A stretch of 64,000 nt of DNA from an uncultured delta proteobacterium. Lineage in GTDB: Bacteria; Desulfobacterota; Binatia; UBA9968. The DNA is taken from assembly GCA_963771465.1 (NCBI GenBank), contig CAVYTU010000001.1:32001-96000 (forward strand), read 5' to 3'. The position numbers were made by a program, and so were the translations under genes. The notes under the pieces are model-generated. The model saw nothing but the letters and a program-made list of their open reading frames with translations, did not search any database and was not told where the DNA came from. This document shows, piece after piece, positions 39,019 to 54,520 of this stretch; the first letter of the stretch is position 1, and each line of letters opens with the position of its first letter.

Positions 39019-41016
39019 TCAATTGGTTGGCGTATTGATCTCCACTACCGGTCCCTTCTGCCCCTGGAGATTTAAAACCCACCGGCTTGCCACCTGCACA
39101 CGGCCGCCGTCGCGGCTGGCATGCAGGAGTTTGCCCTCCCATCGTCCGCTTTGAACGAGTTCGGATTCGATCTCTTGCAATGGTTTCGGAAATTGCGTCT
39201 GCAGAAGATCGTGGCTAACTTTGCCTAAGGCTTCCTCTTTCCTCCAGCCATAAAGCTCCTCGGCGCGGCGGTTCCAGGAGTTAATTGTACCCTCCATGGA
39301 GCGAACCATGATGCTTTCGTTTAGGGGTTCGAAAAGATCCTCATGCTCTTTTCCGATCACTTCCGGCTGCTCAACCAATAGCTTTTCGCGAATAGTTGAG
39401 CGCGCGGATTTACCCGTGTTGCGGTTGACAATCCAATTGGGCGGTTTTAGGTAAACTGCACGTGGAGTCAGGCCTAGTTTTGCTACGATTGTATTACGCA
39501 CCGCTCGCTCAATTTCGAGGGTGGATTTCAGGCCTTCATCGGTTTCCGCCTCAGCCACAACGATGACATCCTCCGTCGCGAACTCGGCATTATGCAAGCC
39601 AAACGCTACGGATCGCCCCGCAGAAACGGCAGGATGATTGCAAACGAGCTTCTCAATATCGTGGAGATTAATGTTCTTCCCTCCGGCAGCCATACCTCCA
39701 GAGCGAACACGATCCTTCGCTTCTTCCAGTATCTCGATCAGACGGTTACGAAAATCATCCGGAGTGTAAGAAGATAATCGGCGGCAGCCCGCGTCCATCA
39801 AAGCACGTCGCAGATTCTGGTCAGTCCAGATTCGATAAATACCCTCAGCTATAGATTCCACCGATCGTGGATCCACCAACACCGCGGCGTCGCCAACCTG
39901 TTCGCGAACACCGCGAATGTCCGAGGTCAGCACCGGGCATCGAAAAGCCCAGGCTTCCAACACCGGAATGTTTGTCGGGCCAAAAAAAGTCGGCATGACC
40001 AGCGCGATCGCTTCAGAATAGAGCGCCGACATGTCTTGTTCCGGAACATACCCGAGATCGTGTATCTGATTTTCTATTCCTAGGTTGGACCGGAGCGACA
40101 TAACCGCATTGTAGGTATTCTCCCGTATGTCTCCGCTGTGAGATCCGCAAAAAACAATGGGAACATTTGTATGTTGTTCCCTTTTCAACAGGCTCAGCGC
40201 CTGCACAATACGCGCATGATTCTTGTGTGGCCAGAACTGCGCCGGATAGAACAGGTACCGCTCCGGCAAATGATAAGCTGTGCGAACTCTCTTTCGCTCG
40301 GTTTCCGATATCCCTGTGGCAAGGTACGTTGCAGACAAGTACGGTAGTATTTTAATTTTATCTTCGGTGACTCCATACGGCCCATAAAAATTGAGAATGT
40401 CTTCCTTGCCCACTTCGGATTCGGCAATAATCAACGTCGCACAACGGCAGGCGTTGCGAAACATATACTCGCGATATTCCCACTCGCCGTTTGCCGAAAC
40501 CTCGGGAAACTGCGGTTGAAGTCTATGTTGTAGGTCGTGAATCGATATCACGTAAGGCATTCCGGCCTCAAAACAGATCGGCGTCGGGTAAGTATATAAA
40601 AGCAAGTCCAGTTTTGCCCGTAGGAAACAATCCCGCAGATCGCCTCGATACTTGATGACTTCCGGATCGGGAAGCGTCCGCGGCTCGGGTTTCGGACCGT
40701 TTCGCGAGTTAACTAATTGCCTTCGTAACCATCGCAAAGCTTCACGGTGCAGGCCTTCCCCGATCAGCCACCGTATTCCATCCGCGACACGTTGGCTCCA
40801 TGGAAGTGGTGGGACTGTGATAATCGACTCCATTTCCCAACGGTCCCGCGTTAATGAGATCAAAGGCGTATCGCGCGTCGTATTATTTAAGAGCAGAACA
40901 AACTGATCGTTACAGCCGTTCTCTAACCAGGTATTTAATCCATGGACTATATTCTGGCTGTACTGGTACACACCACCGCCCTCAGGATTCCAACTCGGAA
41001 GAATTCCGATTCGCAT
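39019..41016 (-). CDS. GT4 glycosyltransferase fused to an adenylation-enzyme C-terminal subdomain and a PAS domain
   Basis: GT4 part: HDLQH, YPAQFWPHKNH and PTNIPVLEA. Then GGKNINLHDIE...VAFG...TGKSAR (FAAL-like). Then WNRRAEELYGW...WEG...SRW (PAS). Confidence 0.88.
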   Translation of the reverse strand: MRIGILPSWNPEGGGVYQYSQNIVHGLNTWLENGCNDQFVLLLNNTTRDTPLISLTRDRWEMESIITVPPLPWSQRVADGIRWLIGEGLHREALRWLRRQLVNSRNGPKPEPRTLPDPEVIKYRGDLRDCFLRAKLDLLLYTYPTPICFEAGMPYVISIHDLQHRLQPQFPEVSANGEWEYREYMFRNACRCATLIIAESEVGKEDILNFYGPYGVTEDKIKILPYLSATYLATGISETERKRVRTAYHLPERYLFYPAQFWPHKNHARIVQALSLLKREQHTNVPIVFCGSHSGDIRENTYNAVMSLRSNLGIENQIHDLGYVPEQDMSALYSEAIALVMPTFFGPTNIPVLEAWAFRCPVLTSDIRGVREQVGDAAVLVDPRSVESIAEGIYRIWTDQNLRRALMDAGCRRLSSYTPDDFRNRLIEILEEAKDRVRSGGMAAGGKNINLHDIEKLVCNHPAVSAGRSVAFGLHNAEFATEDVIVVAEAETDEGLKSTLEIERAVRNTIVAKLGLTPRAVYLKPPNWIVNRNTGKSARSTIREKLLVEQPEVIGKEHEDLFEPLNESIMVRSMEGTINSWNRRAEELYGWRKEEALGKVSHDLLQTQFPKPLQEIESELVQSGRWEGKLLHASRDGGRVQVASRWVLNLQGQKGPVVEINTPTN

Positions 41017-41893
41017 GAGTCAACCTCTTCGATAGGTGCTTTATAAAACGTCTCTTTGCCGCGGTGATCAGCCCAAGGCCGAATGGCCACCAGATCACCG
41101 CCCGGATGGAGCAGCGACTCGCGTGTTTCTCTTCTTTAGCTTTGTGATAGAAAAACGCTGCCCGTTGGTAATGATGGGCCAGAACTTTCGGCCCTAAGTG
41201 CCGAAGGATCGACCAACGATGTTTTTGGATAATTTGCTCATAGCCCATCGCTTCTTTGCGTGAGTCTTTTGAAATGGTATTTGCATGGCGACAATCGTAT
41301 AGAAACGTTGGCTCGGGCACGAACTCAAAAGTAAAATGCCGAGCAAGTTTGATCGCGGCATCCCATTCTTGATATGCAACGATGTTTTCATCGAGGTAGC
41401 CGAGACGGCCAAAAGCAGTCCGGGAAATGAAAAGTCCCTGGAACATTGGCCCAGGCCTCCGCAGGAGTTCGCGATAAACATGGCCTTCTAACGGTGGCAC
41501 ACCGAAGAGTTCCATGTTTTCTTCTTTCAAGACATAGCATTCCGAGTGCACCACCTGAGACCCGTTTTCTGTCGCCTTGAACCTAACCTCCAGACTATGT
41601 GGAAGCCATCGGTCGTCAGAGTCCAGAAACGCAATCCAATCGCCGCGGGCAACACGAAGGGCTGTGTTACGAGCTGCCTGCGCGCCTTTTCGCTCGTTGT
41701 GCTCGATCAGGCATATTCGACTGTCCTTCTTCATCCACTCTCGAACGACTGAGCTTGTAGCATCGGTAGAACCATCATTGACAATTAGAGCTTCCCAGTT
41801 CTGATACGTCTGGCTTACGAGACTTTCTAGCGCTTCGCGAATTATGAAGTCTCTATTAAAGGCGGGGACAACAACGCTAACTAACGGCGGCAT
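40982..41893 (-). CDS. GT2 glycosyltransferase
   Basis: Motifs VSVVVPAFN, NDGSTD, ARN and FLDSDD. Confidence 0.9.
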   Translation of the reverse strand: MPPLVSVVVPAFNRDFIIREALESLVSQTYQNWEALIVNDGSTDATSSVVREWMKKDSRICLIEHNERKGAQAARNTALRVARGDWIAFLDSDDRWLPHSLEVRFKATENGSQVVHSECYVLKEENMELFGVPPLEGHVYRELLRRPGPMFQGLFISRTAFGRLGYLDENIVAYQEWDAAIKLARHFTFEFVPEPTFLYDCRHANTISKDSRKEAMGYEQIIQKHRWSILRHLGPKVLAHHYQRAAFFYHKAKEEKHASRCSIRAVIWWPFGLGLITAAKRRFIKHLSKRLTHANRNSSELES

Positions 41894-42035
41894 GGCTTTA
41901 CCTGACAAGAATCCCAAATAGGATCCACTAAATTATGTTCTCCCTGCAGAGCGTCTACTAGCAGATCTCTGTTGATTAAGTGAGCTGGCCGCTCGCCGGA
42001 TATCCAACGGTACGAGATTTAGAAATCAGAAAAGC

Positions 42036-43365
42036 TCATTGTACCGCGTGCTGAGTACGATCATGTGATGCTTGAACACTTATTTCTCCGGCAACAAAAA
42101 CAACGCCTTGTGTTTGAGATTCCGGAATCCGTCCCGACCGATATACGTCGGCCGGTTCCACATTAAGCACTAGCGCTCTTTCGACACGGTCAATCCAATC
42201 CCTTTGATCTTCCACCAAGCTCAATGTAATGAAATATCTTCCCGGTAATAGAGGCACGTTCGGAATATGGAGAGACGCAATGCCGCTATCCGCGGCTCTC
42301 AAAACATTTCTGTCGTTCGCGGCGATATAGTTATCCAATGTAAGAATTCGCCGATGATATTGATCTTCGAGTGCAAAACCGAAGATGGGATTCCTGATCG
42401 CACGACTGCACTGAAACTGGTAGTATATTTTTACACTTTCTCCCATCATAATAGAGTTGTTTTTGACTCCGTTCCGGTCCAAAATCCAAGCCTTTCGCAA
42501 GGCTTTTTCCTGAGAGTGAGATCGTCTAGAGTACTGAGTTAGATCAATTTCTGGCCGCTCTCTATCCATACTATCTGTATCCAAGCCAGCTTCGAGGTAA
42601 CGTGAAGTAACCGTGCGCGTGTCGCCGTCTTGTTTAAGCCCCCCTTCTTGAATCCAGAGTATTCGCTGACAGAGTGCTTGGATTGCGGGCATACTGTGGC
42701 TAACGAACAATACGGTTCGCCCGCCTTTGGCGACATCGCCCATTTTTCCTAGGCATTTTCTTTGAAAGGCGGCATCGCCGACCGCTAGGACTTCGTCGAC
42801 AATCAAAATTTCCGGCTCCAGATGTGCGGCAACGGCAAATGCCAGGCGAACGTACATCCCGCTCGAATAGCGTTTAACCGGGGTATCAATAAACTTTTCG
42901 ATCTCGGCGAACGCGACGATGTCGTCGAATTTCTTTACAATTTCTCCCTTCCTCATGCCTAAGATCGCGCCGTTGAGATAGATGTTCTCGCGACCCGTAA
43001 GCTCGGCATGAAACCCGGTCCCCACTTCTAGAAGTGATCCAACCCGTCCGTAAATTTTCTGCTCTTCCCGTCGTGGGATCCGTGATGCGCGAGAGGATCT
43101 TGAGAAGTGTGCTCTTTCCGGCACCGTTTCGACCGATAATTCCGACGACTTCTCCCTGCCCGATTTCGAACGAAACATCTCTGAGCGCCCAGATGCTATC
43201 CGGCGACTCCGACCGCTCACCGGCCGCAAGATCGTGGCCATTGGAGCGAAAGAGGGACCGCAGGCCATCTGTAATCTGATCGCGCAGTGTATCGTGCCGC
43301 TGTTTTACGAGACCGATCTTGTATTGCTTGGACAGATGTTCAACTCGAATTGCAGTATCGCTCAT
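42036..43365 (-). CDS. wzt: Wzt polysaccharide ABC exporter ATPase with C-terminal carbohydrate-binding domain, +1 frameshift near 43057
   Basis: [10 protein letters not shown] is in one frame. [14 protein letters not shown] and DEVLAVGD are in the next frame. An extra A in GAAAATTTAC separates them. Confidence 0.9.
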
Positions 43366-43409
43366 TTTCGCCGTTAAACCTCGGCTTAATTTCAAATGTG
43401 GCGTTAAGT

Positions 43410-43644
43410 TCCGTCGGCTCGGTAATGCGGAGAGCCATTTTAAGGAGCGCGCTCTTTTTCTTAGCAGTCTCGATTGGAGTGCCAAGAACGTCTCCTCTGT
43501 TGAATTCCAGGGAGGCATCTTTAGACATCCAATATCGTAGCCTGATAAACGCGAGTCCTGCTTGCTTAGTGTGGAGGTGTTGCCCTTGGGATGAAACCAC
43601 CGACAACAGAATGTCCGGAAGTGATCGCGTAAGGCGTCGTGCAC
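43410..43644 (-). pseudogene. Decayed 5' fragment of a second wzt
   Basis: YWMSKDASLEFNRGDVLGTPIETAKKKSALLKMALRITEPT aligns with [41 protein letters not shown] of the adjacent Wzt. HDALRD in another frame matches HDTLRD. Confidence 0.7.
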
Positions 43645-43659
43645 GGGTTGCGCATTCCT

Positions 43660-44523
43660 TCACACCACATCGGCGAATGTACGCTCTGTATATTTAAAAT
43701 ATATAAACCCGGGAACCAGCAGGGCCAACACCATAAGAGCGCTTGTGAGAATCACTCCAAAATCAGGGCTCTCTCTCCCCAGCAGAGCCCACCGAAAACC
43801 TTCGATGACTCCTGCCATCGGATTCAGACTGTAGAGACCACGCCAATTTTCTGGAATCAGACTTACCGGATAGACGATCGGCGAAGCGAACATCCACAAC
43901 TGGATCACAAAGGGAACCGTGTGGCCGACATCCCGATATCTCACGTTGAGTGCTGAGAGCCAAAGCCCCACCGCCAGAGACGTGAATATGACAATTAACA
44001 AAAAGAGCGGCAGCGCAAGAATTCTCCAAGTGGGCATGGTGCCGAACCAGATCATCATAGTAACGAAAATGACAAGCGATATGGCGAAATCGACCAGCGG
44101 CGATAAGATTCCGGAAATGGGGAGAAGAAGCCGCGGGAAGTATATTTTTGAAATAAGTTGTGCATTGCCGACTATGCTGTCACTGCCGCGTGTAAGCGAG
44201 CTGACGAAAAGGCTCCATGGCAGCAGCGCTGAGTACGCAAAGATAGGGTATGGCAGTCCGTCGGATGGAATTTTAGCAACTCTGCCAAAAATAGCGGTGA
44301 AGAGAATCACAGTTAGCAGGGGCTGAAGCACGACCCAACCGATACCAATGAAGGTCTGGCGATATCGGACCTTCAAATCGCGCCACACAAGAAAATAAAG
44401 CAATTCCCTGTATTCCCATAAGGCTTTTAGGTCCAGACGTAGGATAGTCTTCCGAGGCTCAATCACGATTGTCGGTTCGCGAAAGACAGGAAACGAGGAT
44501 ACTTCTGTCATTCTGCTAGACAC
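43660..44523 (-). CDS. wzm: Wzm polysaccharide ABC exporter permease
   Basis: Motifs YRELLYFLVWRDLKVRYRQT, KIYFPR, YRDV, LNPM and ERTFADV. Confidence 0.93.
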   Translation of the reverse strand: MSSRMTEVSSFPVFREPTIVIEPRKTILRLDLKALWEYRELLYFLVWRDLKVRYRQTFIGIGWVVLQPLLTVILFTAIFGRVAKIPSDGLPYPIFAYSALLPWSLFVSSLTRGSDSIVGNAQLISKIYFPRLLLPISGILSPLVDFAISLVIFVTMMIWFGTMPTWRILALPLFLLIVIFTSLAVGLWLSALNVRYRDVGHTVPFVIQLWMFASPIVYPVSLIPENWRGLYSLNPMAGVIEGFRWALLGRESPDFGVILTSALMVLALLVPGFIYFKYTERTFADVV

Positions 44524-44761
44524 TCTATGTATTCTCCCTAAGTTTCGTTTGGTGTCGTTTCATCATGAGTGAGAATCCCAACTATCATCAATCGCTAGGT
44601 GTTTGCCCCAATTCAGGCCCGCATAACTGAATGTATTCCGAGGTGCTAGACGAATGAGTCTGCTGGCTCCGAGCACCGTTTCTCTATGCCTCCTGCGGCT
44701 CATGCGCGTCGGATGAAACGGTATCGTTTGTAGCCTTTACTCTGAGCAATAGCTGCGCAAG

Positions 44762-46324
44762 CTAGGTGCCGTTCGGATCGGTAAATGCCGATGATGAGGG
44801 TTTTTTCATAGAAACGTCGGCCGGTTTTGGCCAAATGGATGATCTTACATGGGTACCGTTCGGAGAGGCTGTGGCGCGAAGCAGCTCTTTATACCAATCG
44901 AGATAAGTCTCCACCTCCAGGTGCAAGTCAAATCGCTCCCGAGCGTCTTTTGCCGCGTTTTGGCCGAGGCGCGCGCCCAATGAAGGGTCGGCAAGCAGCC
45001 GTCTGATGCCGATGGCCATAGCTTCAGGATCTCCCGGCGCGACTAGCAGCCCCGTCGCCTGATCCATAGGATAGGTATTGAGGCGCGCGCCCTGGGAAAC
45101 GGCACCGGCCAAATCCAGCCCTTTCACCTGCTCCGGGATCCCCCCGACAGCCGACCCGATCACAGGCGTGCCACAGGCAAGCGCTTCTAGCACTGTGTTA
45201 GGAAAGGTATCGACCTTGGCGCCGTGGAGATAGAGATCCGCCGCCTGATAATAGCGCGCCACCTCGGCGGGATCATTTTGATAAGGAACAAATCGCACTT
45301 CTCCTTGGCCGATTCGTTCTGCCGGTGCGCTCTCCCCGACTGCTAGGAAAATCAGCGGCCGCTCCGTCGCCCTCGCCGTGACTCGGGCAATCGCTTCTCG
45401 CATGGTCTGATAGTCCTTGAAAATATTTCTCCGGATGCCGTTAGCCGTGAACAATACGATGTCGGCGTCCTGAGGCAGCCCTAGTGTCGCCCGTGCTTTA
45501 TCTTTGGGCGCGGCGCGAAACACGCTCAAGTTTATGCCGTAGGGGATGACCCTCGCTTGATCGATTGCTGGAGCAAGAATCGATTGCTGCACTTTTTCCA
45601 TCAACCAGCGGGACGGAGTCGCCACGTGAAACCGACTTTTTAAAAAAATTCCGCGCTTGCGGCGCCAGTTGCGAGCCGTAGCATCGCGGCTGATTGCCGG
45701 ATAAATCGTCAGATCCGGACAGTTACCACAGCCGATTTTCCAACGTTCACACGCGAACGAATGAGCGCAGTGCCCACTTAGCAGCCAGGCGTCATGCAGC
45801 GTAAAAACCAGCGGTGCGCGGCGCGAGAGCCACGCCAGTGCGCGGAGATCAAAGTACCCGCCATGGAGATTGTGACAGTGAACGATGTCCGGTTCATGGG
45901 GTGGCAATTGAAGCAGCCGATGGGTGCCGGGATAGTTGAAGTTTTCCACACCGAGCCGCGCCTGCAGCTCACGTCGCGGATCCACCAGGGTCCGCAAGAG
46001 AGCTTGAACCCGGCTAACCGCAAGCTCTTTTATTCCGTAGGACTGCAACCGCTTCTCCACACAGAGCAAGATCCGGCCGCGGGAATTTTTATCATTCGGT
46101 CGTGGTATCGGGATGATGTTTGGGTCGTTGCTGCGTTTTTTGCCGACGGCCAGCCATGAATCATGTTCAAGCACCCGATAGCTCCGGAAGAGATCCCAGG
46201 CCACTTTCTCTGCGCCGCCGCCGATATCGACGGTACTCACCTGAAGGATGCGTAACGGTGGCTCGCCTCGTATGGCGCGCGCACGACCACAGGCTAAATG
46301 TTCTTCTTCAGTGTTGGTTGGCAT
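44762..46324 (-). CDS. GT4 glycosyltransferase (WcaC-like)
   Basis: Motifs GGAE, HNLHGGY, TLHDAWLLSGHCAH and DTFPNTVLEALACGTPV. Confidence 0.9.
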   Translation of the reverse strand: MPTNTEEEHLACGRARAIRGEPPLRILQVSTVDIGGGAEKVAWDLFRSYRVLEHDSWLAVGKKRSNDPNIIPIPRPNDKNSRGRILLCVEKRLQSYGIKELAVSRVQALLRTLVDPRRELQARLGVENFNYPGTHRLLQLPPHEPDIVHCHNLHGGYFDLRALAWLSRRAPLVFTLHDAWLLSGHCAHSFACERWKIGCGNCPDLTIYPAISRDATARNWRRKRGIFLKSRFHVATPSRWLMEKVQQSILAPAIDQARVIPYGINLSVFRAAPKDKARATLGLPQDADIVLFTANGIRRNIFKDYQTMREAIARVTARATERPLIFLAVGESAPAERIGQGEVRFVPYQNDPAEVARYYQAADLYLHGAKVDTFPNTVLEALACGTPVIGSAVGGIPEQVKGLDLAGAVSQGARLNTYPMDQATGLLVAPGDPEAMAIGIRRLLADPSLGARLGQNAAKDARERFDLHLEVETYLDWYKELLRATASPNGTHVRSSIWPKPADVSMKKPSSSAFTDPNGT

Positions 46325-46368
46325 TAAGAATCTATCCCGGCTGGCGCAGTCAAATAACGTTACTACAA

Positions 46369-47403
46369 TCAGATGGGTTGAGTAGTCGCCGAATGAGATT
46401 GGCTGAATTCGGCGGATGCAAAAGGCGTGAGGCTCCCCAGGCGCTCTCGCTCGTGTACGATGATGTTACTAAGCAGTTCGCGAAGATCCATCGATGGTTC
46501 ATATCCAATGACGCTCTCAACTTTGGTTAAATCCGGCAAACGCCGCCGCATATCTTCGAAACCCTCCTCATAGGCTTGGTCGTAGGGAACAAATACGATC
46601 TCGGCGGAGCTATGGGTCATTTCCTTGACCATTTTTGCAAGCTCAAGGATCGATATTTCTTTCGTATGGCCGACGTTGAAAACTTCTCCGTAAGCTCTGG
46701 GGTGTTGAATCAGTTTGATCATGGCGCCGACAACATCGCCGACCCACGTAAAGGAGCGTTGCTGTTTTCCGTCACCATAAACGGTGAGCGCTTTGTCGGA
46801 AAGAGCCTGGCGCACGAAACGCGGCACAACCATTCCGTACTGCCCGGTTTGCCGCGGGCCGATGGTGTTGAAAATCCGCAAGACGACAGTAGGTAATCCC
46901 TTTTCCTTGTAATAGGCCTTGGCGAGAAACTCGTCGATAATTTTTGACGCGGCATAACACCACCGCGACCGCGAAGTCGCTCCCAATATCAAGTCGTCTT
47001 CCTCGTTAAACTTTACGCGCTCCGACTTTCCGTACACTTCCGAAGTCGAAACGAGCAGCGCAGGCTTACGTTTGCGGGCGCAGAGTTCAAGGATCAGCTC
47101 AGTGGCCTTGATATTCGTTTCGATCGTCCTGACCGGCTGTTCGACGATTAGCCGCACGCCCACGGCGGCTGCGAGGTGGAACACGAGATCCGCGCGGTCC
47201 ACCAATTCCATCAGCAGGGGGCGGTTCATGACGGTGTCGAGCGCGTATGAGAAATGCGGGTTTGCCTTGAGATGCGCTATATTTTCGATGCCTCCAGTCG
47301 ATAGATCGTCGATCACTTCCACGCGCCACCCCAATCGTAGAAGAGCGTCGGCGAGGTGTGATCCGATAAAACCCGCGCCTCCCGTAATAAGTGCTGTAGT
47401 CAT
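46369..47403 (-). CDS. NAD-dependent nucleotide-sugar epimerase/dehydratase
   Basis: Motifs TGGAGFIGSHL, HLAAAVGV, STSEVYG and YAASK. GGAGG RBS. Confidence 0.92.
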   Translation of the reverse strand: MTTALITGGAGFIGSHLADALLRLGWRVEVIDDLSTGGIENIAHLKANPHFSYALDTVMNRPLLMELVDRADLVFHLAAAVGVRLIVEQPVRTIETNIKATELILELCARKRKPALLVSTSEVYGKSERVKFNEEDDLILGATSRSRWCYAASKIIDEFLAKAYYKEKGLPTVVLRIFNTIGPRQTGQYGMVVPRFVRQALSDKALTVYGDGKQQRSFTWVGDVVGAMIKLIQHPRAYGEVFNVGHTKEISILELAKMVKEMTHSSAEIVFVPYDQAYEEGFEDMRRRLPDLTKVESVIGYEPSMDLRELLSNIIVHERERLGSLTPFASAEFSQSHSATTQPI

Positions 47404-47435
47404 TTGTTCCTCCTGATTGTTTGAATACTTCCTGG

Positions 47436-48479
47436 TTAGCCGCCCAGCCATGCGCCGAGGCGACGGCTAAATTCATCTCCGCCCCAATCCCGCACCAGGA
47501 AACGAGGTAGCTGAAAGCGATCGGTGGTCGGCTCGACAACTGCAGGAAAGTTCGCGCAAGCGCCGAGATAACCCGCATGCGCGACGAACCCCGCTGTCTC
47601 CTCGGTATAATCCGACTTCGCACCGAATGGGTACGCAAAACTTCGGACTGGCCGGCCGAGGATTTCCTCTAGATTGCTTTTGCTCCGCTCTATTTCCACA
47701 CGTTGAGCACGTGCTGGCAGATGGGAAAAAACCGGGTGGGTTACCGAATGCGAACCAACCTCGACCAGATCTCCTTCAGCAAGATCGATGACTTCCGCGG
47801 GCGAAAGTGCCGCGCGGTGGCTCAGCGGGACCGCTCCAGCACCTACCCATTTGGTCAACTCGTCCAATACATGACGTCGCTCAGCTTCATGTAAAGGGCG
47901 AAGCAGTCTGTGCAATTCGCGATACACTGACTGCCGCGGGCCGGGATCATGGCGCTCCGAGATATTCCAACGCCGCTCGCAAGCGCCTCGGCCACATGCG
48001 TTTGCCGATGGGCTCAAATTCCACTGATGAAGCTTTCCTGAAATATCCAAACTGAGGGTTGATGGTAAGGTGGCATATTGAAGCAATACCTTCTCCAATT
48101 CATCCCACCAAAAATCTCGTTCGCCGCCGAGATAGCCCGTCGTGACAAAGACGGTTGCCGGTACATCATAACGTTCTAGTACCGGCTTGGCACTGATCAA
48201 GTTGTCCGCATAACCATCGTCAAAAGTCACGATCACGCCACGAGGAAGAGACTTTCCGTCGCGCACTGCGGTGATCAAATCGAGAAGGCGAACGGGATAA
48301 CCTTCTCTGCGCAGCACTTCAACTTGTTCGGCGAAATGGCGCGGCGTGACCGCAAGCAACTGCGGATCGGAAGCCAGATCAGCCACGCGATGATACGCGA
48401 GAACAACCGGCCCGGGAAAAAAAAGATTGGTATACGGCTGCGCGAGCCGGCGCAATCTTCCGAGGCCCCGTATCGTCAT
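47436..48479 (-). CDS. Polysaccharide deacetylase (CE4)
   Basis: Motifs LAYHRV, TFDDGY, GSHSVTH and FAYPFG. Confidence 0.9.
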   Translation of the reverse strand: MTIRGLGRLRRLAQPYTNLFFPGPVVLAYHRVADLASDPQLLAVTPRHFAEQVEVLRREGYPVRLLDLITAVRDGKSLPRGVIVTFDDGYADNLISAKPVLERYDVPATVFVTTGYLGGERDFWWDELEKVLLQYATLPSTLSLDISGKLHQWNLSPSANACGRGACERRWNISERHDPGPRQSVYRELHRLLRPLHEAERRHVLDELTKWVGAGAVPLSHRAALSPAEVIDLAEGDLVEVGSHSVTHPVFSHLPARAQRVEIERSKSNLEEILGRPVRSFAYPFGAKSDYTEETAGFVAHAGYLGACANFPAVVEPTTDRFQLPRFLVRDWGGDEFSRRLGAWLGG

Positions 48480-49243
48480 AAACTGTCGACCTTCTTCACC
48501 GCTCTGACCGTAATCAACAACTCGTAATCAGGATCACGAAATTCAAGTTCGTCAGGGCGCAGCTCTTCCTGGGCTAATCCGTGTAGAAACGCGTTTGCAG
48601 CGAGGACATTCCCATAGCTTTCAACGCTAACGTTCTCCGGCCCGAACACTTCTTCAAAAATCCTTCGCGCGGATGCTGTAGTAAACCGCCAGTAATCGCC
48701 CCATCGATCCATATCGTAACGACTGATTTGGCTGATACCCGGAACAGTCGCCAGGAGAACGCCGCCGGGCCCGAGAATACGGTGCAGCGACAAGATCGCG
48801 GCCTGAAAGTTGTAAATAAACTGCAAGGTCTGGGTAAAGATAATGCAGTCAAAACTGTCTGATGGAATAGAGTTCTCGCCGGCCAAATCGCCGACGAGCG
48901 TTGCTTTGGGATTTCCTTCCTGAACGTAAAGCACGTCCGATTTGATTACGCGATCGCGACCGAAACGAGTCGTGTAGGCATTATCTGCGACTTCGAGAAC
49001 GCGGCCATGAATATCGCCTGCGTGCCGGCCGAGAAATTGTTCAATATAGTAGCGATCGATGCACAGGCCACGATCGAATCCGAAGACCCGACTGACCGGC
49101 GTAACGCGTCGAAGATTTCCGAAACGGACCCAACCGATCAAGGGGGACAAGCACACAGCCCGCTGTTGCAATCGCAGCCATTGACGAATGGACGACGGCA
49201 ATATTTGGCGAGCCAAATCTAGCGTTTGAGTGGTCGCGGTCAT
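48476..49243 (-). CDS. SAM-dependent methyltransferase
   Basis: Motifs FGFDRG..IDRYYIE, FDCIIFTQTL and DYWRFT. Confidence 0.85.
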   Translation of the reverse strand: MTATTQTLDLARQILPSSIRQWLRLQQRAVCLSPLIGWVRFGNLRRVTPVSRVFGFDRGLCIDRYYIEQFLGRHAGDIHGRVLEVADNAYTTRFGRDRVIKSDVLYVQEGNPKATLVGDLAGENSIPSDSFDCIIFTQTLQFIYNFQAAILSLHRILGPGGVLLATVPGISQISRYDMDRWGDYWRFTTASARRIFEEVFGPENVSVESYGNVLAANAFLHGLAQEELRPDELEFRDPDYELLITVRAVKKVDSL

Positions 49244-49281
49244 TGTGATTCAGACTGTCGCGCCGAACACGTTACAAGGAT

Positions 49282-51231
49282 TCAATGAACTTGCAACACC
49301 TGATACGGCCCGAAACGGCGTGCGAGACGAAACCGATTGTCGGCCGGAACGTCAACGTGTTGATGGGCGGCTTCATCTTTCGCAGTCGTGCTGGTTTGTA
49401 CGATGCGGTATTCATCCTCAGATGAAACACCTTCCGCGCATTGATTCTTGTTGGTGATGTCATGTCGATGTTTGAACAGCAGATCAAAATCAGCTCCAAC
49501 TTTATAGCGGGGGTCGATGCCGTGATAGGTAGCCATAAATCTGTAGATATAGGTCTGGTAACCGATCGCCACGTTCTGTTTACCGTATAATTTGATTTGG
49601 TCGGCTAAATAGTCGATGACCTGAATCTGCTCGCCCTTTCTTCCCGACCAGCCTTCAGTTAGCCATGCGCTAGCCCGCGCGAGCAGCAAGGAGTTGCCGG
49701 CGATCCCCATGATCACGAGAATGGAAACTATACGTGTGACAGTCGGGGAAAACCCCAGTTTGGACGGCAAATAAGTGACGGCGGCGGCGAGGGTTATAAC
49801 TTGCAGCGGCCACAACCACCAAAATCTTTCGAGACGCTCTAGCTCAGTCAATGCGAGCATAATCATCCACGGTACAACGAGGCTGGTCACGAAAACTCCC
49901 ATTCTCCACGGCCGCTGTGCGGCGCCTCCAACCAAAACCGCAACGAGTCGACCGAACCCACCGGCTATTGTCTGTTTAAGCATTACGAGTATAAAGCCCG
50001 CGAACAGAAATATCGCCTGCAGGATCCGTACGTTCATAAGCGTCGAAGCCTCCAACCTCTCGTCCATACTCAAAAAACGCGCGACCGTGAGTTCATTCAC
50101 CAATAGACCCAGGAGAAGCGCGGCGATACCAACATAATTAAGAATAACGGGCCAGGCGATCTTTCGGTTGGTCGACTCGAAGCTGAAATTGCTTAGGCTC
50201 TGAGCGAGCAAGAGGAAAAGTCCGATCACCATCAGTACGAGGAGCGCGGCGTCCACTCCGGAAAATTTTGCAGCATGATGAAAATTAGCGATCAAAAGAT
50301 GATTCATTATGAGACTGGCGCGGCCCCATAGTGGACTCAGTCCCTGGACGAAGTTGCGCCAAATACCGTCGTAACGGTTCGGCGGTGGTGGCGCGGTGAA
50401 AACCGCGGAGGCGGAACCGTTCTCCCAGCTTTTCGGCGCCAAGCCTGGATCACACCAAAATTCCTTGAAATTGCTCAAGCGCATTTGTTGACGATAGACT
50501 TGGGATTTAAGATCGGCGAAATCTCGGCTTGCTTCGAATCGCAGATAAGGGTACCAAACAGCTGCAGCAAGAACCGTGATGAACGCTATGGGTGCCAACC
50601 GCACCGGAGGACGATAGAGAAACCAAACTACGGGAATAATGAATAAAGCCGGCGCCATCTCTAAAAACATGTACATCCCGACAGCCCAGATGAAAGCGGC
50701 GGCCGCTAGATACCATGGGTTCTTCCTTTCCACCCACTTTCCAATCCAGTAGCTCATCCACACGTAAAAAAAAGGGTGAGAGCGCACCCAGGAGCTTTGG
50801 GCAAATAACAAACCCAACTCCGACAAACCCCACAGCGTCACGGCCAAGTAGGCGCATGCGGTTCCGAAAAAGTCACGCGCAAGAAAGAAAATACCAAACA
50901 AAGTTCCGACATATAGCAAAGCGGACGCGGGGAACTCAAAAAGTCGAGGATCGCTGAAACTCACCGCACCTGGAATCATCAACCAGGTGATTCCGGGCGG
51001 CGTGTAGGAGCCAAAGCTCGTCAAGGTGCCTTTGTGCGGAATCTCCCCTGCGTTTACGAACGCCTGGGCGTCATCCATGTAAGGGATCAGATCGAAATTG
51101 AAGGTCCTTGTATTCCATCCCTGAAAAGCCAACAGCAAGCCGACCGCCGCGACGAGACCAATAAGAATTGTGGAACAAACGATAGGCTTCGGCAGATTCA
51201 TTCTCTCGGCTGCCATAACGGGTATTGTCAA
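49282..51231 (-). CDS. Multi-pass membrane protein, possibly a GT-C fold transferase or ligase
   Basis: More than 10 hydrophobic helices, an N-terminal loop with a conserved-looking Asp and GxxxSFGSYTPP, and location in a glycan locus. Confidence 0.6.
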   Translation of the reverse strand: MTIPVMAAERMNLPKPIVCSTILIGLVAAVGLLLAFQGWNTRTFNFDLIPYMDDAQAFVNAGEIPHKGTLTSFGSYTPPGITWLMIPGAVSFSDPRLFEFPASALLYVGTLFGIFFLARDFFGTACAYLAVTLWGLSELGLLFAQSSWVRSHPFFYVWMSYWIGKWVERKNPWYLAAAAFIWAVGMYMFLEMAPALFIIPVVWFLYRPPVRLAPIAFITVLAAAVWYPYLRFEASRDFADLKSQVYRQQMRLSNFKEFWCDPGLAPKSWENGSASAVFTAPPPPNRYDGIWRNFVQGLSPLWGRASLIMNHLLIANFHHAAKFSGVDAALLVLMVIGLFLLLAQSLSNFSFESTNRKIAWPVILNYVGIAALLLGLLVNELTVARFLSMDERLEASTLMNVRILQAIFLFAGFILVMLKQTIAGGFGRLVAVLVGGAAQRPWRMGVFVTSLVVPWMIMLALTELERLERFWWLWPLQVITLAAAVTYLPSKLGFSPTVTRIVSILVIMGIAGNSLLLARASAWLTEGWSGRKGEQIQVIDYLADQIKLYGKQNVAIGYQTYIYRFMATYHGIDPRYKVGADFDLLFKHRHDITNKNQCAEGVSSEDEYRIVQTSTTAKDEAAHQHVDVPADNRFRLARRFGPYQVLQVH

Positions 51232-51402
51232 TCTCTCGAAGCTCGTCGCCGCATACTCATCGACACCGGTCCCTCTGCAGATTCCAGATGGGAATTTGTA
51301 GAATTGAGCCGGGATAGTGAAGGTAGGTCAATTAGGTGCTGCTCATCTTACACCGGCAGGCACCACGAACAGCGGCATGTTCCTAAGCGCGTAGTGTCGG
51401 TC

Positions 51403-52392
51403 TTAATTCCTCAGGGTCGTAGCGCAAGCCGTCTTAATTCGATTGCTCAAATAGGTCGCGGCCTCAGTCAGGAGACTTCGGCTCACGGCGCTGTAATACG
51501 CCGGGATAAATGGCAGCGCGAAGGCTGCTTTAACCCATACGGGGAACGAAAGTCGCTGCCGATAAATGCCGCTCCAACGTTCGTAATAACAACCCCAGTT
51601 CATTCGATCGATGGTATCTTTTACCTCCCGCCATTCGGCGGGGTGAGCGGCAGCAAATTGCTGAAGCTTTGGATCGGAATTGACGAATTGCAATAATTCT
51701 CGGGTTGCCCGGGCTATATCGTCGATGCTGATAGACAATCCATGGCTTGCTTGATAGACCCGAAAGCGGAAGGTCGCGCGCGAACTCATGGCAACATGAT
51801 TGTCTAAGCAAAGCTTCACCACCAGAGCATCATCATGGCTATGGCCTCTCCATAATTCCGGGTATCCGCCGCACGCCCTTAAGGCCTGAGTCCGGGAAAA
51901 AAACGACGCGAGTCCGGCAAATTTGTATTGAGAGGTTCGCCATAAGCTTTGGATAAATTCCGGACCGCTGACGATAGGCGGAAGATCGTCGCTTGAAGTT
52001 CTGATCGTCTTTCCGGACTCGTCCATGATTTCCTGTCTCGACAAAGCAACCGACGCGCTGGGATAACGGGCCAACAAGGCGGCCATTTCGGAGACGAAAT
52101 TGGGGCTGATTTCATCATCATCGCACAAAATCATGAAATATTTTCCTGATGCCCGCTGTATAATCTGATTGAAATGGGTCGGCATGCTGACAATGGAAGG
52201 GCTTTGGCGAAATTTAAAAGGTTTCGAATAGTGTCGCCGAACCAGCTGCGGCACCTCGCCGCCGTTGAGCCCGTTATCCGACACTATCAGTTCGATCGCG
52301 GGATAGTTTTGTTCGCTGACGCTTCGAAGAACGTTCGGAAGAAATCCAAGTCGCTTGTAGACAGGAACACCGATAGTAACTAAGTCGCTCAT
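51403..52392 (-). CDS. GT2 glycosyltransferase
   Basis: Motifs VTIGVPVY, IVSDNG and LCDDD. Confidence 0.88.
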   Translation of the reverse strand: MSDLVTIGVPVYKRLGFLPNVLRSVSEQNYPAIELIVSDNGLNGGEVPQLVRRHYSKPFKFRQSPSIVSMPTHFNQIIQRASGKYFMILCDDDEISPNFVSEMAALLARYPSASVALSRQEIMDESGKTIRTSSDDLPPIVSGPEFIQSLWRTSQYKFAGLASFFSRTQALRACGGYPELWRGHSHDDALVVKLCLDNHVAMSSRATFRFRVYQASHGLSISIDDIARATRELLQFVNSDPKLQQFAAAHPAEWREVKDTIDRMNWGCYYERWSGIYRQRLSFPVWVKAAFALPFIPAYYSAVSRSLLTEAATYLSNRIKTACATTLRN

Positions 52393-52411
52393 AAAGGTTC
52401 AGCCACAGGAT

Positions 52412-53338
52412 TTAGCAGCCAGAGGGCGCTTCAGCGCCTGATTCTTCTCTGAGCTTGCCGCCTTCACGGTGGCGAGCCGGCTTTACCAACCCGTCAGCCG
52501 CCGAATACAACGGATGGTCGAAGAAATGGGCCAGATAAACCATGTCCACCCATTCTTGTTGATCGTATGGCTTGGGCAGAAAATACTTGAGGCCGTACAT
52601 CGGCGAGATTTTTCTCATCGCGTGCGCCGCGTTAAACTCCCGGATGGCTAAACGCTCGCCCGTGAAATCCGAATAGATATGCCCCAAAATATCGTCGAAG
52701 TAACAGTAGATGCGCGGCAGAAGAATTTTTCTATCCGCCTCAAAAAGCTTAAATGCCTGCATCGTTGAACTGTAATAATCGAGATCAAAAGAAATGAACC
52801 CGACCGGAGCGGGATTAGAAGCCAGAAATGCTGGGAGGGTATTTTCGACCGGACCCAGCACCAGCTCCGCCCTTGTAAGACGCTTTTTAAGCCGTCCCAC
52901 GTCCATGGGAAATGCTCCTTCCACCCACAAACTGGGCAGGTCGCGATAATCGGTCGGCTTGGGCAATCCAATCCCGGTGTCGAAACCGTAGACACTGATA
53001 CCAACGCCTAAAATCGCCTCGACCTTTTCGGCTATCTGATCGAGGGCAACCAAACCATTGCCTCCCGCCACGCCAAACTCGATCACCGATACCCGTTTCA
53101 TACCGAGCGCTTTGGCAAGATGCGCAGCTTGCAAAACGCCCCACGCGTAATTAGGTCTGAAACCTGATGTGCTTTCCTGATGGATTTGCGTGAGTAACGA
53201 ATTCAACCAAGGATAAGCAAGATCGCTATCTTCAGTTATCTTGGGACTCACGACGACCGGTTCTTCCGCCCAATTTTTCAGCAACCGAATGCCTCCGAGT
53301 GTTTTTCTAAGCAGCCCCTTCGTCACCTTTTTTAACAT
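52412..53338 (-). CDS. TylF/MycF-like methyltransferase-fold protein
   Basis: Motifs EFGVAGG, YGFDT..GLP, DLDYYSST and YFDD. Confidence 0.75.
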   Translation of the reverse strand: MLKKVTKGLLRKTLGGIRLLKNWAEEPVVVSPKITEDSDLAYPWLNSLLTQIHQESTSGFRPNYAWGVLQAAHLAKALGMKRVSVIEFGVAGGNGLVALDQIAEKVEAILGVGISVYGFDTGIGLPKPTDYRDLPSLWVEGAFPMDVGRLKKRLTRAELVLGPVENTLPAFLASNPAPVGFISFDLDYYSSTMQAFKLFEADRKILLPRIYCYFDDILGHIYSDFTGERLAIREFNAAHAMRKISPMYGLKYFLPKPYDQQEWVDMVYLAHFFDHPLYSAADGLVKPARHREGGKLREESGAEAPSGC

Positions 53339-53394
53339 GCATCTCCTCCTTCCTAGAAAATTTTTTCTGTCACGATTACAGCTTATAGGATTTA

Positions 53395-54450
53395 TCACTC
53401 ATTCAATGGCGTGTTGATCTCCACTACCTTTCCCGAATACGCCTTTGGATCATCCAAGACCCACCGACTTTCTACCACGATCCGACTACCGTCGCGGGCG
53501 GCATGCACCAGCTTGCCTTCCCATTTTCCGTTTTGAAGGAGTATGGCATCGATCTTTTCCAACGGTTCGGGAAACTCCGTCCGGAGAAGGTTATGGCTTA
53601 CCTTGCCTAGGGCCTCCTCTTTCCTCCAGCCATACAATCGCTCTGCGCCATAATTCCAGAAATTAATTTTACCATCTATGGTGCGAGTCATGACGATGTC
53701 TTTACTGTCAGATTCTTCAGTTGACAAACGATTGATGATGAAGGCTTTGCCGTCCCAGCCAAATTCTTTGTACGGTGTTGCCTTCAGGCGCGGATTTCGT
53801 TCCAGCCATTCGTTGAAAGCTTTCTGTTCTCCCAATTCTTCACGGTTTGCAAAACAATACCAATCATCGAAAATGATTATACTGCCATCTACAAGATAGG
53901 GTTCGACGAAGGTCAAAACCGGCACTGTTGACTCATAGACATCACAATCCACATTTACGATGGCCGCAGCCCGGAGAGCGAGTTTTTCTTCCGTTTCATG
54001 ATTGAGTGTATCCGAGTACCAGCCGGGGATCAGCTCCACTCGGCTCATATCCACATCGGCGTGCACAAGGTTGTTACGCACCTCGAGCAAGCCGCCGGAA
54101 AAAATTCCCGGCGGAAACGCTTTTGCTTCACTCTTGTTCACATTGAGTGTAGGAATTCCTTGAAAAGAATCGAAGCCGTAGAACTTCATATCCGACAGCG
54201 ATCCAAAGCGTTTGGAAAGATGATAGGCGGCAATCATGCTACCACCCATCCACATGCCAAATTCGAGATAGTCGCCTTTCACCTCGGCCCAATGCACGTA
54301 TTCGAGACATGCACTGAGCATTGCCTCTTTTCGGTTATATTGCACCAGCTCCTGGATTTTAGGTAGGTACTTATGTCGCACCGCTGGCTTGTTTAAGTAG
54401 TTGATAATCGGTCGAGCGATAAATTTGAGAAGTCTAGACAAAATTTTCAT
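53395..54450 (-). CDS. TylF/MycF O-methyltransferase fused to a C-terminal PAS domain
   Basis: GDYLEFG, GFDSFQG, GWYSDTL, VDCDVYES and FDDW, followed by WNYGAERLYGW...WEG...SRW. Confidence 0.88.
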   Translation of the reverse strand: MKILSRLLKFIARPIINYLNKPAVRHKYLPKIQELVQYNRKEAMLSACLEYVHWAEVKGDYLEFGMWMGGSMIAAYHLSKRFGSLSDMKFYGFDSFQGIPTLNVNKSEAKAFPPGIFSGGLLEVRNNLVHADVDMSRVELIPGWYSDTLNHETEEKLALRAAAIVNVDCDVYESTVPVLTFVEPYLVDGSIIIFDDWYCFANREELGEQKAFNEWLERNPRLKATPYKEFGWDGKAFIINRLSTEESDSKDIVMTRTIDGKINFWNYGAERLYGWRKEEALGKVSHNLLRTEFPEPLEKIDAILLQNGKWEGKLVHAARDGSRIVVESRWVLDDPKAYSGKVVEINTPLNE

Positions 54451-54520
54451 CCTCTTGGCAGGAGATTACTTTAGATCCACCTGTCTGGCTATTATGAGTG
54501 ACCTAAAGCGGTGGACTGCT

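What the first reader, a model, noticed from the sequence alone, without database searches (positions are those of the whole stretch)
39019..54450. Two unrelated glycan-biosynthesis enzymes carry nearly the same C-terminal PAS domain: a candidate sensor-gated or PAS-scaffolded polysaccharide system
Seen: the GT4 protein (PAS about 39019-39340) and the TylF methyltransferase (PAS about 53395-53710), 14 kb apart, both end in WNxxAExLYGWRKEEALGKVSHxLLxTxFPxPL...GxWEGKLxHAxRDGxR...SRWVL...VVEINTPxN. They stop at almost the same residue and have no kinase, GGDEF or HTH output domain. The DNA differs at synonymous positions, so this is not an assembly duplication. Known: PAS domains usually sit N-terminal to signalling outputs and also dimerise. 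Inference: a portable PAS tag on glycan enzymes could gate activity by ligand or dock the enzymes into one complex. I do not know of a described system like this.
Basis: partly seen in the sequence, partly recalled or inferred. Interest (0 to 1): 0.85.

Follow-up and report, generated by a model that had tools for sequence, protein, structure and literature searches.

The report
Portable PAS tag on glycan-building enzymes
Two unrelated sugar-polymer enzymes in one gene cluster end in nearly the same small PAS domain, which belongs to a distinct, apparently undescribed PAS group attached to many kinds of polysaccharide enzymes in soil bacteria; what it does is still untested.

Summary
A GT4 glycosyltransferase (39019-41016, minus strand) and a TylF O-methyltransferase (53395-54450, minus strand) both end in a PAS domain. 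The two domains are 62% identical over 98 residues (E 2e-38) and 73% identical in DNA. Neither protein has a kinase, GGDEF or HTH domain.

They sit in a Wzm/Wzt (ABC-transporter-dependent) glycan cluster. Both belong to one well-separated PAS clade (181 of the 220 tree rows, SH-like support 97). The nearest outsiders are histidine-kinase PAS domains at 43-50% identity.

Members of this clade are fused, at either end and through loose polar linkers, to:
- membrane SGNH/AlgX-like proteins (the commonest carrier);
- fatty-acyl-AMP ligases (FAAL);
- GT4 and GT2 glycosyltransferases;
- TylF methyltransferases;
- sugar-nucleotide dehydratases, SDRs and a DegT aminotransferase;
- pyruvyl transferases and Wzt.

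None of 179 clade members keeps the D-I/V-T signalling motif, against 141 of 155 kinase-type relatives. The GT4 acquired its tag together with the C-terminal subdomain of a FAAL.

The tag is under purifying selection (omega 0.16-0.36). However, most genomes and loci hold only one tagged protein, so docking of two different enzymes cannot be the general role.

My best reading is a self-associating, possibly ligand-responsive tether rather than a classical allosteric sensor. The mechanism is unproven.

The parts
39019..41016 (-). Gene for P0001 (665 aa): GT4 glycosyltransferase + FAAL C-terminal subdomain + PAS tag
39760..40677 (-). GT4 catalytic region (residues 114-419 by the Pfam Glyco_transf_4 and Glycos_transf_1 matches)
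39370..39684 (-). Relic C-terminal subdomain of a fatty-acyl-AMP/CoA ligase (residues 445-549). It is joined to the GT4 at the position that aligns with the boundary between the ligase's N- and C-terminal subdomains. It is as conserved as the GT4 part (69-72% against 68-72% identity).
39022..39351 (-). PAS tag of P0001 (residues 556-665); the stop codon follows directly
53395..54450 (-). Gene for P0002 (351 aa): TylF-family O-methyltransferase + PAS tag
53848..54324 (-). TylF methyltransferase core (Pfam residues 43-201; the fold runs to about residue 241 in the model)
53704..53724 (-). Short linker between the methyltransferase and the PAS (about residues 243-249). Residues 245-249 have pLDDT below 50. 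In orthologs this linker is 10 to about 50 residues long.
53398..53706 (-). PAS tag of P0002 (residues 249-351)
52412..53398 (-). 328-aa methyltransferase-like ORF with no Pfam match, directly after TylF-PAS with overlapping stop and start. Its homolog P0219 (61% identical) carries the same kind of PAS at its own N-terminus.
37291..38424 (-). DegT aminotransferase. Its close homolog P0209 (86% identical) carries an N-terminal PAS plus a linker of the SGNH-family type.
42036..43365 (-). Wzt (ABC ATPase + Wzt_C glycan-binding domain), split by a 1-base frameshift in the A run at 43055-43058
43660..44523 (-). Wzm (ABC-2 permease)

Best explanation
The two C-terminal domains are members of a distinct, strongly conserved clade of cytoplasmic PAS domains. 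This clade behaves as a portable accessory module of polysaccharide-locus proteins.

The clade derives from S-box PAS domains of histidine kinases. It has lost the D-I/V-T motif and the helical linker through which such domains drive an output. It hangs on loose polar linkers at either end of more than ten unrelated enzyme types.

Most likely it works as a self-associating tether, possibly strengthened or weakened by a ligand. It would make the carrier protein oligomeric, or bring tagged proteins together at the assembly and export site. It is unlikely to be a rigid allosteric switch on each catalytic domain.

In this locus it would hold the GT4 and the TylF methyltransferase as dimers or together near Wzm/Wzt.

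Shown: the domain, its clade, its fusions, the selection on it, the loss of the signalling motif, and the loose linkers. Inferred: self-association, and any effect on enzyme activity or placement.
For: 1. Discrete clade. Best-domain scores are bimodal, with kinase-type domains at 45-126 bits, enzyme-type mostly at 140-216 bits, and one protein in the 130-139 bin. In the tree, 181 rows form one group with SH-like support 97 and a branch of 0.34.

2. Portability. Partner labels need 61 changes on the tree, against a minimum of 17 and a shuffled mean of 133. Partners seen are TM-SGNH/AlgX, FAAL, GT4, GT2, TylF, CDP-glucose-4,6-dehydratase-like, SDR, DegT, pyruvyl transferase, Wzt and DUF616. The tag also moves between neighbouring genes.

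3. No classical transmission element. D[IV][TS] occurs at the end of 0 of 179 enzyme-type domains, against 141 of 155 kinase-type domains. 57 of the 179 end within 12 residues of the protein's end, and the linkers are rich in S, T, D, E, R and P. The DIT motif ends signalling PAS domains and leads into the coiled coil (passages read in PMC4810494 and PMC9098866).

4. Loose tether. The linker between the TylF core and the PAS is 10 to about 50 residues in orthologs. In the model of P0002 both domains have pLDDT above 90, residues 245-249 fall below 50, and pTM is only 0.68.

5. Catalysis does not need the tag. TylF orthologs 73-83% identical overall in the alignment (76-89% over the catalytic part in the BLASTP column: P0008, P0009, P0010, P0012) have other tails instead.

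6. The tag is kept by selection. Omega is 0.16 for the PAS against 0.26 for the methyltransferase domain versus L093, though on only 5 synonymous and 3 non-synonymous differences. 37 columns are invariant among 10 sequences from different carriers. In the GT4 lineage the PAS (68-74% identity) and the FAALc piece (69-72%) are as conserved as the GT4 part (68-72%).

7. Precedent. The non-catalytic C-terminal region of the terminator WbdD oligomerises and recruits the polymerase WbdA in the same kind of pathway (passages read in PMC3482155).
Against: No binding was demonstrated by anything here.

Most carriers stand alone. In the genus, 1 of 7 tag-bearing genomes has two tagged proteins. Of 40 metagenome loci, 1 has two tagged ORFs, though most of those contigs are short. 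A tether between different tagged enzymes therefore cannot be the general role. It would have to be homotypic, or aimed at an untagged partner that I did not identify.

The very high conservation could equally mark a ligand pocket. It includes H47, W71, H77, S89 and R90, several of which are shared with the kinase-type relatives that are presumably sensors.

I had no model coordinates, so I could not tell whether the conserved residues line the pocket or a surface.

The window's TylF tag lacks most of the N-terminal cap seen in other members (a 5-residue gap).
Confidence: 0.45

Rival explanations
1. Ligand or redox sensor. Each tag binds a small molecule or cofactor and switches its own enzyme on or off, so that one signal co-ordinates many steps of glycan assembly (one-component control).
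For: This is the usual role of PAS domains. The fold is canonical (pLDDT 91), and the best structural matches are sensory PAS domains: 3lyx, NifL, FixL, LOV and DosP. Residues such as H47, T52, P55, W71, S89 and R90 are near-invariant in both enzyme-type and kinase-type members, as expected for a shared pocket. Conservation is far above what a mere dimerisation surface usually needs.
Against: 0 of 179 domains keep the DIT motif or a helical linker. The tag works from either end, over linkers of 10 to about 50 disordered residues, on unrelated folds that include a membrane protein and an ABC ATPase. That is hard to reconcile with direct allostery. By my own reading of the sequence, and from recall rather than a tool test, no known cofactor signature is present: there is His where LOV has Cys, and no His in the F-alpha helix as FixL has.
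Confidence: 0.3
2. Substrate- or carrier-binding module. The tag binds something common to all carriers, such as an acyl chain, the polyprenyl-linked glycan or a membrane lipid, and so brings the enzymes to their substrate.
For: The two most abundant carriers are both acyl-handling proteins, namely fatty-acyl-AMP ligases and SGNH/AlgX-like acyltransferases. All carriers act on one class of pathway.
Against: There is no direct evidence. Soluble sugar-nucleotide enzymes (dehydratase, SDR, DegT) do not act on lipid-linked or acylated intermediates, by textbook knowledge of those families. The kinase-type relatives share most of the conserved residues.
Confidence: 0.1
3. Evolutionary passenger. 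The GT4 and TylF fusions are by-products of deletions and rearrangements in a hypervariable glycan locus. They carry along a PAS that is functional only on its native carriers.
For: P0001 is plainly a deletion-type chimera, with a GT4 joined at the FAAL subdomain boundary. P0209 is a PAS plus an SGNH-family linker joined to a DegT, including what looks like the translated leader of that DegT. P0032 has a frameshifted PAS. PAS-less TylF orthologs are common.
Against: In the GT4 lineage the PAS and FAALc parts are as conserved as the catalytic part down to 68-74% identity. The TylF PAS has omega 0.16. TylF-PAS is retained across orthologs that are 65-95% identical.
Confidence: 0.1
4. Assembly or annotation artefact (a duplicated segment or a chimeric contig).
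For: None, apart from the similarity itself.
Against: DNA identity is 73%, and 22 of the 61 conserved residues use different codons. Independent metagenome contigs carry each gene: L093 has TylF-PAS with the same neighbours, and a contig of run X1 spans 39000-39517 at about 98% identity.
Confidence: 0.01

Closest known systems
S-box PAS domains of sensor histidine kinases (e.g. DUF4118-PAS-HisKA and Cache-HAMP-PAS-GAF-HisKA proteins; Pfam PF00989, TIGR00229)
   Same: These are the nearest sequence relatives, at 43-50% identity. They share the core motif (WN..AE..YGW...EA.G..H.LL.T.FP ... G.W.GEL.H...DG...V.SRW), and the model has a canonical PAS fold.
   Different: The enzyme-type clade is separate. 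It lacks the D-I/V-T motif and the helical linker (0 of 179 against 141 of 155). It has no kinase or other signalling output, and it sits on biosynthetic enzymes.
WbdD of E. coli O9a/O8 (chain-terminating methyltransferase or kinase-methyltransferase with a non-catalytic C-terminal coiled coil)
   Same: Both belong to the ABC-transporter-dependent pathway with a Wzt that carries a glycan-binding C-terminal domain. In both, a methyltransferase bears a non-catalytic C-terminal module. In WbdD that module oligomerises and recruits the polymerase WbdA (PMC3482155, passages).
   Different: P0002 is a TylF-family methyltransferase with a PAS domain, not a coiled coil. That P0002 terminates chains, or binds the GT4, is untested.
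PAS domain of CPS_1291, Colwellia psychrerythraea (PDB 3lyx), and other solved sensory PAS domains (NifL, FixL, LOV, DosP)
   Same: 3lyx is the best sequence match among solved structures (E 7.9e-11 with the profile) and the best fold match (TM 0.80).
   Different: Identity is only 24-25%. 3lyx comes from a GGDEF signalling protein, and its function is not stated in the entry title.
Receptor modules on polysaccharide synthases, such as PilZ on BcsA and Alg44 (recalled, not tested here)
   Same: A small non-catalytic domain attached to glycan-assembly proteins that gives post-translational control.
   Different: The fold and ligand differ. Those modules sit on the synthase itself, not on a dozen different tailoring, precursor and export proteins.

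Membership tests
PAS fold (Pfam PF00989 / NCBIfam TIGR00229) | Profile match above the curated cut-off | tested here: met
   PF00989 gives 29.1 and 29.8 bits against a cut-off of 22.6. TIGR00229 gives 31.9 and 30.8 bits against 22.9.
PAS fold (Pfam PF00989 / NCBIfam TIGR00229) | Five-stranded antiparallel sheet flanked by helices, and similarity to solved PAS structures | tested here: met
   The AF2 model has pLDDT 91.2 with strands A, B, G, H, I and helices C-F. Foldseek returns 500 matches, topped by 3lyx, 3bwl and NifL at TM 0.75-0.81.
Classical signalling PAS (sensor module of kinases, cyclases, transcription factors) | C-terminal D-I/V-T motif leading into a helical or coiled-coil linker | tested here: not met
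   0 of 179 enzyme-type domains have it, against 141 of 155 kinase-type. Both window copies end 4-5 residues after ...EINT.
Classical signalling PAS (sensor module of kinases, cyclases, transcription factors) | A signalling output domain in the same protein | tested here: not met
   No HisKA, HATPase_c, GGDEF, EAL or HTH family at E <= 0.1 in P0001 or P0002.
Cofactor-binding PAS (LOV, FixL-type haem, NifL-type FAD) | Cofactor-ligating residues (LOV Cys in E-alpha; FixL His in F-alpha) | tested here: inconclusive
   By eye, His 47 sits where LOV has Cys, and helix F (residues 58-68) has no His. The motif positions are recalled and were not aligned to those families with a tool. Cofactor binding cannot be tested with these tools.
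GT4 glycosyltransferase | Glyco_transf_4 plus Glycos_transf_1 halves | tested here: met
   PF00534 at 92.3 bits is above its cut-off. PF13439 at 25.7 bits is just under its cut-off of 28.5.
Fatty-acyl-AMP ligase (FAAL / AMP-binding) | N-terminal adenylation subdomain (PF00501) plus C-terminal subdomain | tested here: not met
   Only the C-terminal subdomain is present (residues 445-549, NF005850 model positions 443-541 of 545). The alignment shows the GT4 replacing everything before the subdomain boundary. P0001 is therefore not a ligase.
TylF/MycF/NovP O-methyltransferase | Profile match above the cut-off | tested here: met
   PF05711 at 77.3 bits against a cut-off of 23.
ABC-transporter-dependent (Wzm/Wzt) glycan pathway | ABC-2 permease plus an ATPase with a Wzt_C glycan-binding domain in the cluster | tested here: met
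   PF01061 at 82 bits, PF14524 at 70.3 bits, plus teichoic/galactan exporter ATPase models. However, the wzt gene is frameshifted in this assembly.
WbdD-type chain terminator | Terminal methylation of the glycan, coiled-coil ruler, and binding of the polymerase | not testable with these tools
   There is no coiled coil, and the activity and partners are unknown.

The most novel reading that the evidence does not exclude
The tag is a previously unrecognised shared control device for glycan assembly. One partner or ligand acts through the same PAS module on precursor, transfer, tailoring and export proteins. In this locus it couples the polymerising GT4 to a chain-capping O-methyltransferase, taking the place of the WbdD coiled-coil ruler.
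Probability: 0.12. Interest if true: 0.85.

Novelty: new variant of a known kind. Interest (0 to 1): 0.62.

Why it matters
PAS domains are known as sensors wired to signalling outputs. Here a tight PAS clade is instead attached to at least ten kinds of polysaccharide-pathway proteins, from sugar-nucleotide enzymes to the exporter ATPase, and it lacks the usual transmission motif.

If the tag assembles or co-regulates these proteins, it would be a new and simple way to organise or switch envelope-glycan synthesis in abundant soil bacteria. It might also serve as a ready-made docking or control tag for glyco-engineering.

The tag is small, folds confidently and has clear controls (natural tag-less orthologs), so the question is directly testable.

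My literature searches found no description of it:
- Searches returned no papers.
- In some searches, no listed title or abstract start bore on it. From these listings I opened one paper, PMC11340318.
- The large PAS survey PMC10468136 does not contain the words glycosyltransferase or methyltransferase in its main text. Its supplements were not seen.

Tried and rejected
- **Complex prediction.** Complex prediction on the two window PAS domains, each as a 33-row alignment, gave no verdict (best score 0.27, mark 0.32, controls not run). I take nothing from it either way.
- **Genome contig scan.** I therefore have no organism names and no census over named genomes.
- **Two-part acylation idea.** I considered that FAAL-PAS and PAS-TM-SGNH form a Dlt-like two-part acylation system docked through their tags. 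I set this aside. No FAAL-PAS showed among the enzyme-type hits in the genus. The only metagenome locus with FAAL-PAS (L057) has no second tagged ORF within 8 kb upstream and ends about 0.7 kb downstream.
- **Link to the DUF4910 module.** I considered that the tag is tied to it. The link is only partial: 4 genomes have both, 3 have the tag only and 4 have DUF4910 only, out of 31.
- **Gene conversion.** Between the two window copies dS is 0.70, and there is one run of 19 identical bases over YGWRKEE. This is suggestive at most and I did not pursue it.
- **RNA-library contigs (X8).** They lie on parts of the locus, but they are contigs from a metatranscriptome library and do not prove transcription.
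- **Membrane topology of the SGNH carriers.** A hydropathy scan left it unclear which side the SGNH domain faces in the proteins with a C-terminal PAS.

Full report
**1. The observation**

The region 30-64 kb of the window is one long minus-strand polysaccharide cluster. Two of its proteins end in the same kind of domain.

- P0001 (39019-41016, 665 aa) has a GT4 glycosyltransferase and a PAS match at residues 563-647.
- P0002 (53395-54450, 351 aa) has a TylF O-methyltransferase and a PAS match at residues 248-331.
- Both PAS matches are above Pfam's cut-off.
- No signalling output family was reported at E <= 0.1.
- The two tails are 61/98 identical (E 2e-38), and nothing else in the proteins is alike.
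- The DNA is 73% identical. 22 of the 61 conserved residues use different codons, so this is not an assembly duplicate.
- The own genome holds only these two copies. The next best hit is a histidine-kinase PAS at 43% identity.

**2. The setting**

Between and around the two genes lie:

- Wzm, and Wzt with a Wzt_C glycan-binding domain;
- two GT2s and a second GT4;
- epimerases and dehydratases;
- a deacetylase;
- several methyltransferases, including a second, untagged TylF and a C-methyltransferase;
- a GHMP kinase, a nucleotidyl transferase, DegT, Gmd, a PglF-like dehydratase and a UDP-sugar dehydrogenase;
- upstream, a sigma-54 response regulator and two AAA_22 ATPases.

This is an ABC-transporter-dependent glycan locus.

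**3. P0001 is a three-part chimera**

Residues 445-549 match the C-terminal subdomain of fatty-acyl-AMP/CoA ligases (NF005850, E 2e-10).

A search with residues 436-665 found many proteins of about 670-700 aa that are full ligases ending in the same PAS. These are 51-71% identical over 94-97% of that query region.

It also found four proteins with the window's own GT4-FAALc-PAS layout: P0123, P0125, P0126 and P0128.

The alignment shows the GT4 joined at the place where the ligases pass from their N- to their C-terminal subdomain.

In the tree, the window's GT4 tag sits inside a group of ligase tags (6 rows, support 97).

Within the GT4 lineage the three parts are equally conserved:

| Part | Identity |
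|---|---|
| GT4 | 68-72% |
| FAALc | 69-72% |
| PAS | 68-74% |

The borrowed tail is therefore kept, not decaying.

**4. The tag is a clade of its own**

I pooled the proteins. These pools were seeded with P0002, with P0001 residues 436-665, and with a PAS-only profile.

Best-domain scores against the two-sequence profile are bimodal:

- 107 kinase-like proteins score 45-126 bits.
- The enzyme carriers score 120-216 bits.
- Only one protein falls in the 130-139 bin.

A FastTree of 220 domains puts 181 rows on one side of a branch of length 0.34 with SH-like support 97. Of the 27 rows labelled low_HK, 26 lie outside that group and the 27th served as the outgroup. The tree has few columns and many forks are open.

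In genomes, hits above about 130 bits were on enzymes or membrane proteins, and hits at or below 118 bits were on kinases.

In a sample of 401 genomes of the phylum, no match above the cut-off outside the window's genome was enzyme-type. All of those matches end in ...EINNDIT.RK.

**5. What carries the tag**

The precomputed Pfam lists, my scans and BLAST clustering of the non-PAS parts give these carriers:

- TM-SGNH/AlgX-like: 58 proteins in the pool
- FAAL plus GT4: 44
- TylF: 8
- dehydratase: 7
- SDR: 7
- GT2: 3
- Wzt: 3
- pyruvyl transferase: 3
- DegT: 2
- a DUF616 glycosyltransferase and two methyltransferase-like families without a Pfam match

That pool is biased by its seeds. A partner-blind sample is the metagenome scan with two PAS peptide patterns. 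Of its 80 loci, 40 hold an enzyme-type tag. Of 34 classifiable carriers:

| Carrier | Count |
|---|---|
| TM-SGNH/AlgX-like | 28 (25 with the tag at the N-terminus, some doubled; 3 at the C-terminus) |
| Dehydratase | 2 |
| FAAL, SDR, pyruvyl transferase, TylF | 1 each |

The membrane SGNH/AlgX-like protein is thus the main home of the tag. GT4 and TylF are minor carriers.

**6. The tag moves between neighbours**

- The ORF right after TylF-PAS (52412-53398) is 61% identical to P0219, which carries the tag at its own N-terminus.
- The window's DegT is 86% identical to P0209. P0209 starts with the tag, continues with the linker typical of the SGNH family, and runs straight into DegT.
- Partner labels need 61 changes on the tree, against a minimum of 17 and a shuffled mean of 133.
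- TylF orthologs 73-83% identical overall in the alignment (76-89% over the catalytic part) lack the tag and have other tails. One (P0032) has a frameshifted tag.

**7. Distribution**

In the genus, 7 of 31 genomes have an enzyme-type tag. One of them, G005, is unpublished, so the count and the dehydratase-PAS of L010 rest partly on it.

Only the window's genome has two tagged proteins. G445 has one protein with two tags.

Four of the five fetched neighbourhoods lie in related glycan loci that share genes with the window. The fifth, L055, shares only an AAA_22 ATPase.

Among the 40 metagenome loci, one (L080) has two tagged ORFs 2.6 kb apart. These are a UDP-sugar-dehydrogenase-like protein with a C-terminal tag (126 bits) and a PAS-TM-SGNH protein. 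Most contigs are short; 9 are 8 kb or longer.

**8. Selection**

Against the ortholog in L093, which has the same neighbours at 95-99% protein identity:

| Region | Omega | Differences (synonymous / non-synonymous) |
|---|---|---|
| PAS | 0.16 | 5 / 3 |
| Methyltransferase domain | 0.26 | 17.5 / 17.5 |

These counts are small.

Between the two window copies dS is 0.70, dN is 0.25 and omega is 0.36. 37 columns are invariant among 10 tags from different carriers.

**9. Structure and signalling features**

The tag folds as a canonical PAS (pLDDT 91.2). The nearest solved structures are sensory PAS domains at 16-25% identity.

Full-length P0002 gives two confident domains, a linker (245-249) below pLDDT 50, and pTM 0.68.

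The D[IV][TS] motif that closes signalling PAS domains and leads into their coiled coil (PMC4810494 and PMC9098866, passages) is present in 141 of 155 kinase-type domains and 0 of 179 enzyme-type domains. 57 of the 179 end within 12 residues of the protein's end. The linkers that follow internal tags are polar and rich in proline.

**10. Reading**

Shown:

- a discrete, conserved PAS clade;
- its promiscuous fusion to glycan-pathway proteins;
- loss of the transmission motif;
- loose linkers;
- purifying selection;
- dispensability for the catalytic fold.

Inferred: how it acts.

I favour a self-associating tether, possibly ligand-dependent (0.45), over a cis-acting sensor (0.30), a substrate- or carrier-binding module (0.10) and a passenger (0.10).

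The main weakness of the tether reading is that most genomes and loci hold one tagged protein. The partner would then be another copy of the same protein or an untagged component.

WbdD offers a precedent in the same kind of pathway. Its non-catalytic C-terminal region oligomerises and recruits the polymerase (PMC3482155, passages). Whether P0002 caps chains is unknown.

**11. Novelty**

My searches of the paper library found no description of this clade or of PAS-tagged glycan enzymes:

- Searches returned no papers.
- In some searches the listed titles and abstract starts held nothing relevant. Of the papers listed there I opened PMC11340318 and PMC3482155.
- The PAS survey PMC10468136 has no occurrence of glycosyltransferase or methyltransferase in its main text (supplements closed).

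I rate this a new variant of a known kind.

**12. Limits**

- No organism names are available, because the genome-contig scan failed.
- Names given by sources for related proteins are 'Candidatus Acidoferrales bacterium' (P0150, P0193) and 'Alphaproteobacteria bacterium' (P0126).
- I had no model coordinates.

Noticed in passing
window 43055-43058 (wzt, 42036-43365, minus strand): The Wzt ATPase gene is split by a 1-base frameshift in a run of four A. The Walker-A half is read in one frame (ORF 42886-43644) and the rest, with Wzt_C, in another (ORF 42036-43268). A soil-metagenome contig about 99% identical (run X1) lacks one base at 43059, which would restore the frame. A low-depth contig of run X5 agrees with the window.
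   Followed up: partly
L003 (G000:C15:516189-519437), ORFs 1099-2937 and 162-1238, minus strand: The own genome's histidine kinase carrying the nearest kinase-type PAS is read as two overlapping ORFs of 612 and 358 aa. Its relatives in the genus are single frames of 911-960 aa. This is a possible frameshift.
   Followed up: no
proteins P0008, P0010, P0027 (tag-less TylF orthologs): Instead of the PAS, these end in a shared short hydrophobic tail (K-x-LLL-x-WA-x-S-x-LPQ-I/M-F/L). It might be a membrane or partner anchor.
   Followed up: no
L056, L072, L080, L082, L094, L096; window 57946-59274: In 6 of 18 loci examined, a DUF4910/DUF2172/HTH_47 gene lies within about 2 kb upstream of the PAS-TM-SGNH gene, often next to a C-methyltransferase and a GHMP kinase. 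The window has the same module but no PAS-TM-SGNH gene after DUF4910. In the genus the link is partial: 4 genomes have both, 3 have the tag only and 4 have DUF4910 only, out of 31.
   Followed up: partly
protein P0032: A TylF homolog whose PAS begins normally and then runs out of frame after ...INFWN. This is either a broken tag or a sequencing error.
   Followed up: no
window 24897-29765, minus strand: A sigma-54 response regulator and two AAA_22 ATPases (one with SH3_3, one with BON) border the glycan cluster. The same regulator borders the related locus in G019 (L054).
   Followed up: no
window 49282-51231, 56805-57740 and 38435-38836, minus strand: Three ORFs in the cluster (649, 311 and 133 aa) have no Pfam match. 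The 649-aa one was also checked against NCBIfam without a match. Homologs of the 311-aa one recur next to PAS-TM-SGNH genes (L067, L091).
   Followed up: no
window 39000-54500, run X8: Contigs from a soil metatranscriptome library, 95-99% identical, lie on several genes of the locus (for example 47241-47861 and 52026-53267). This hints that a related strain may express the locus, but it is not proof.
   Followed up: partly
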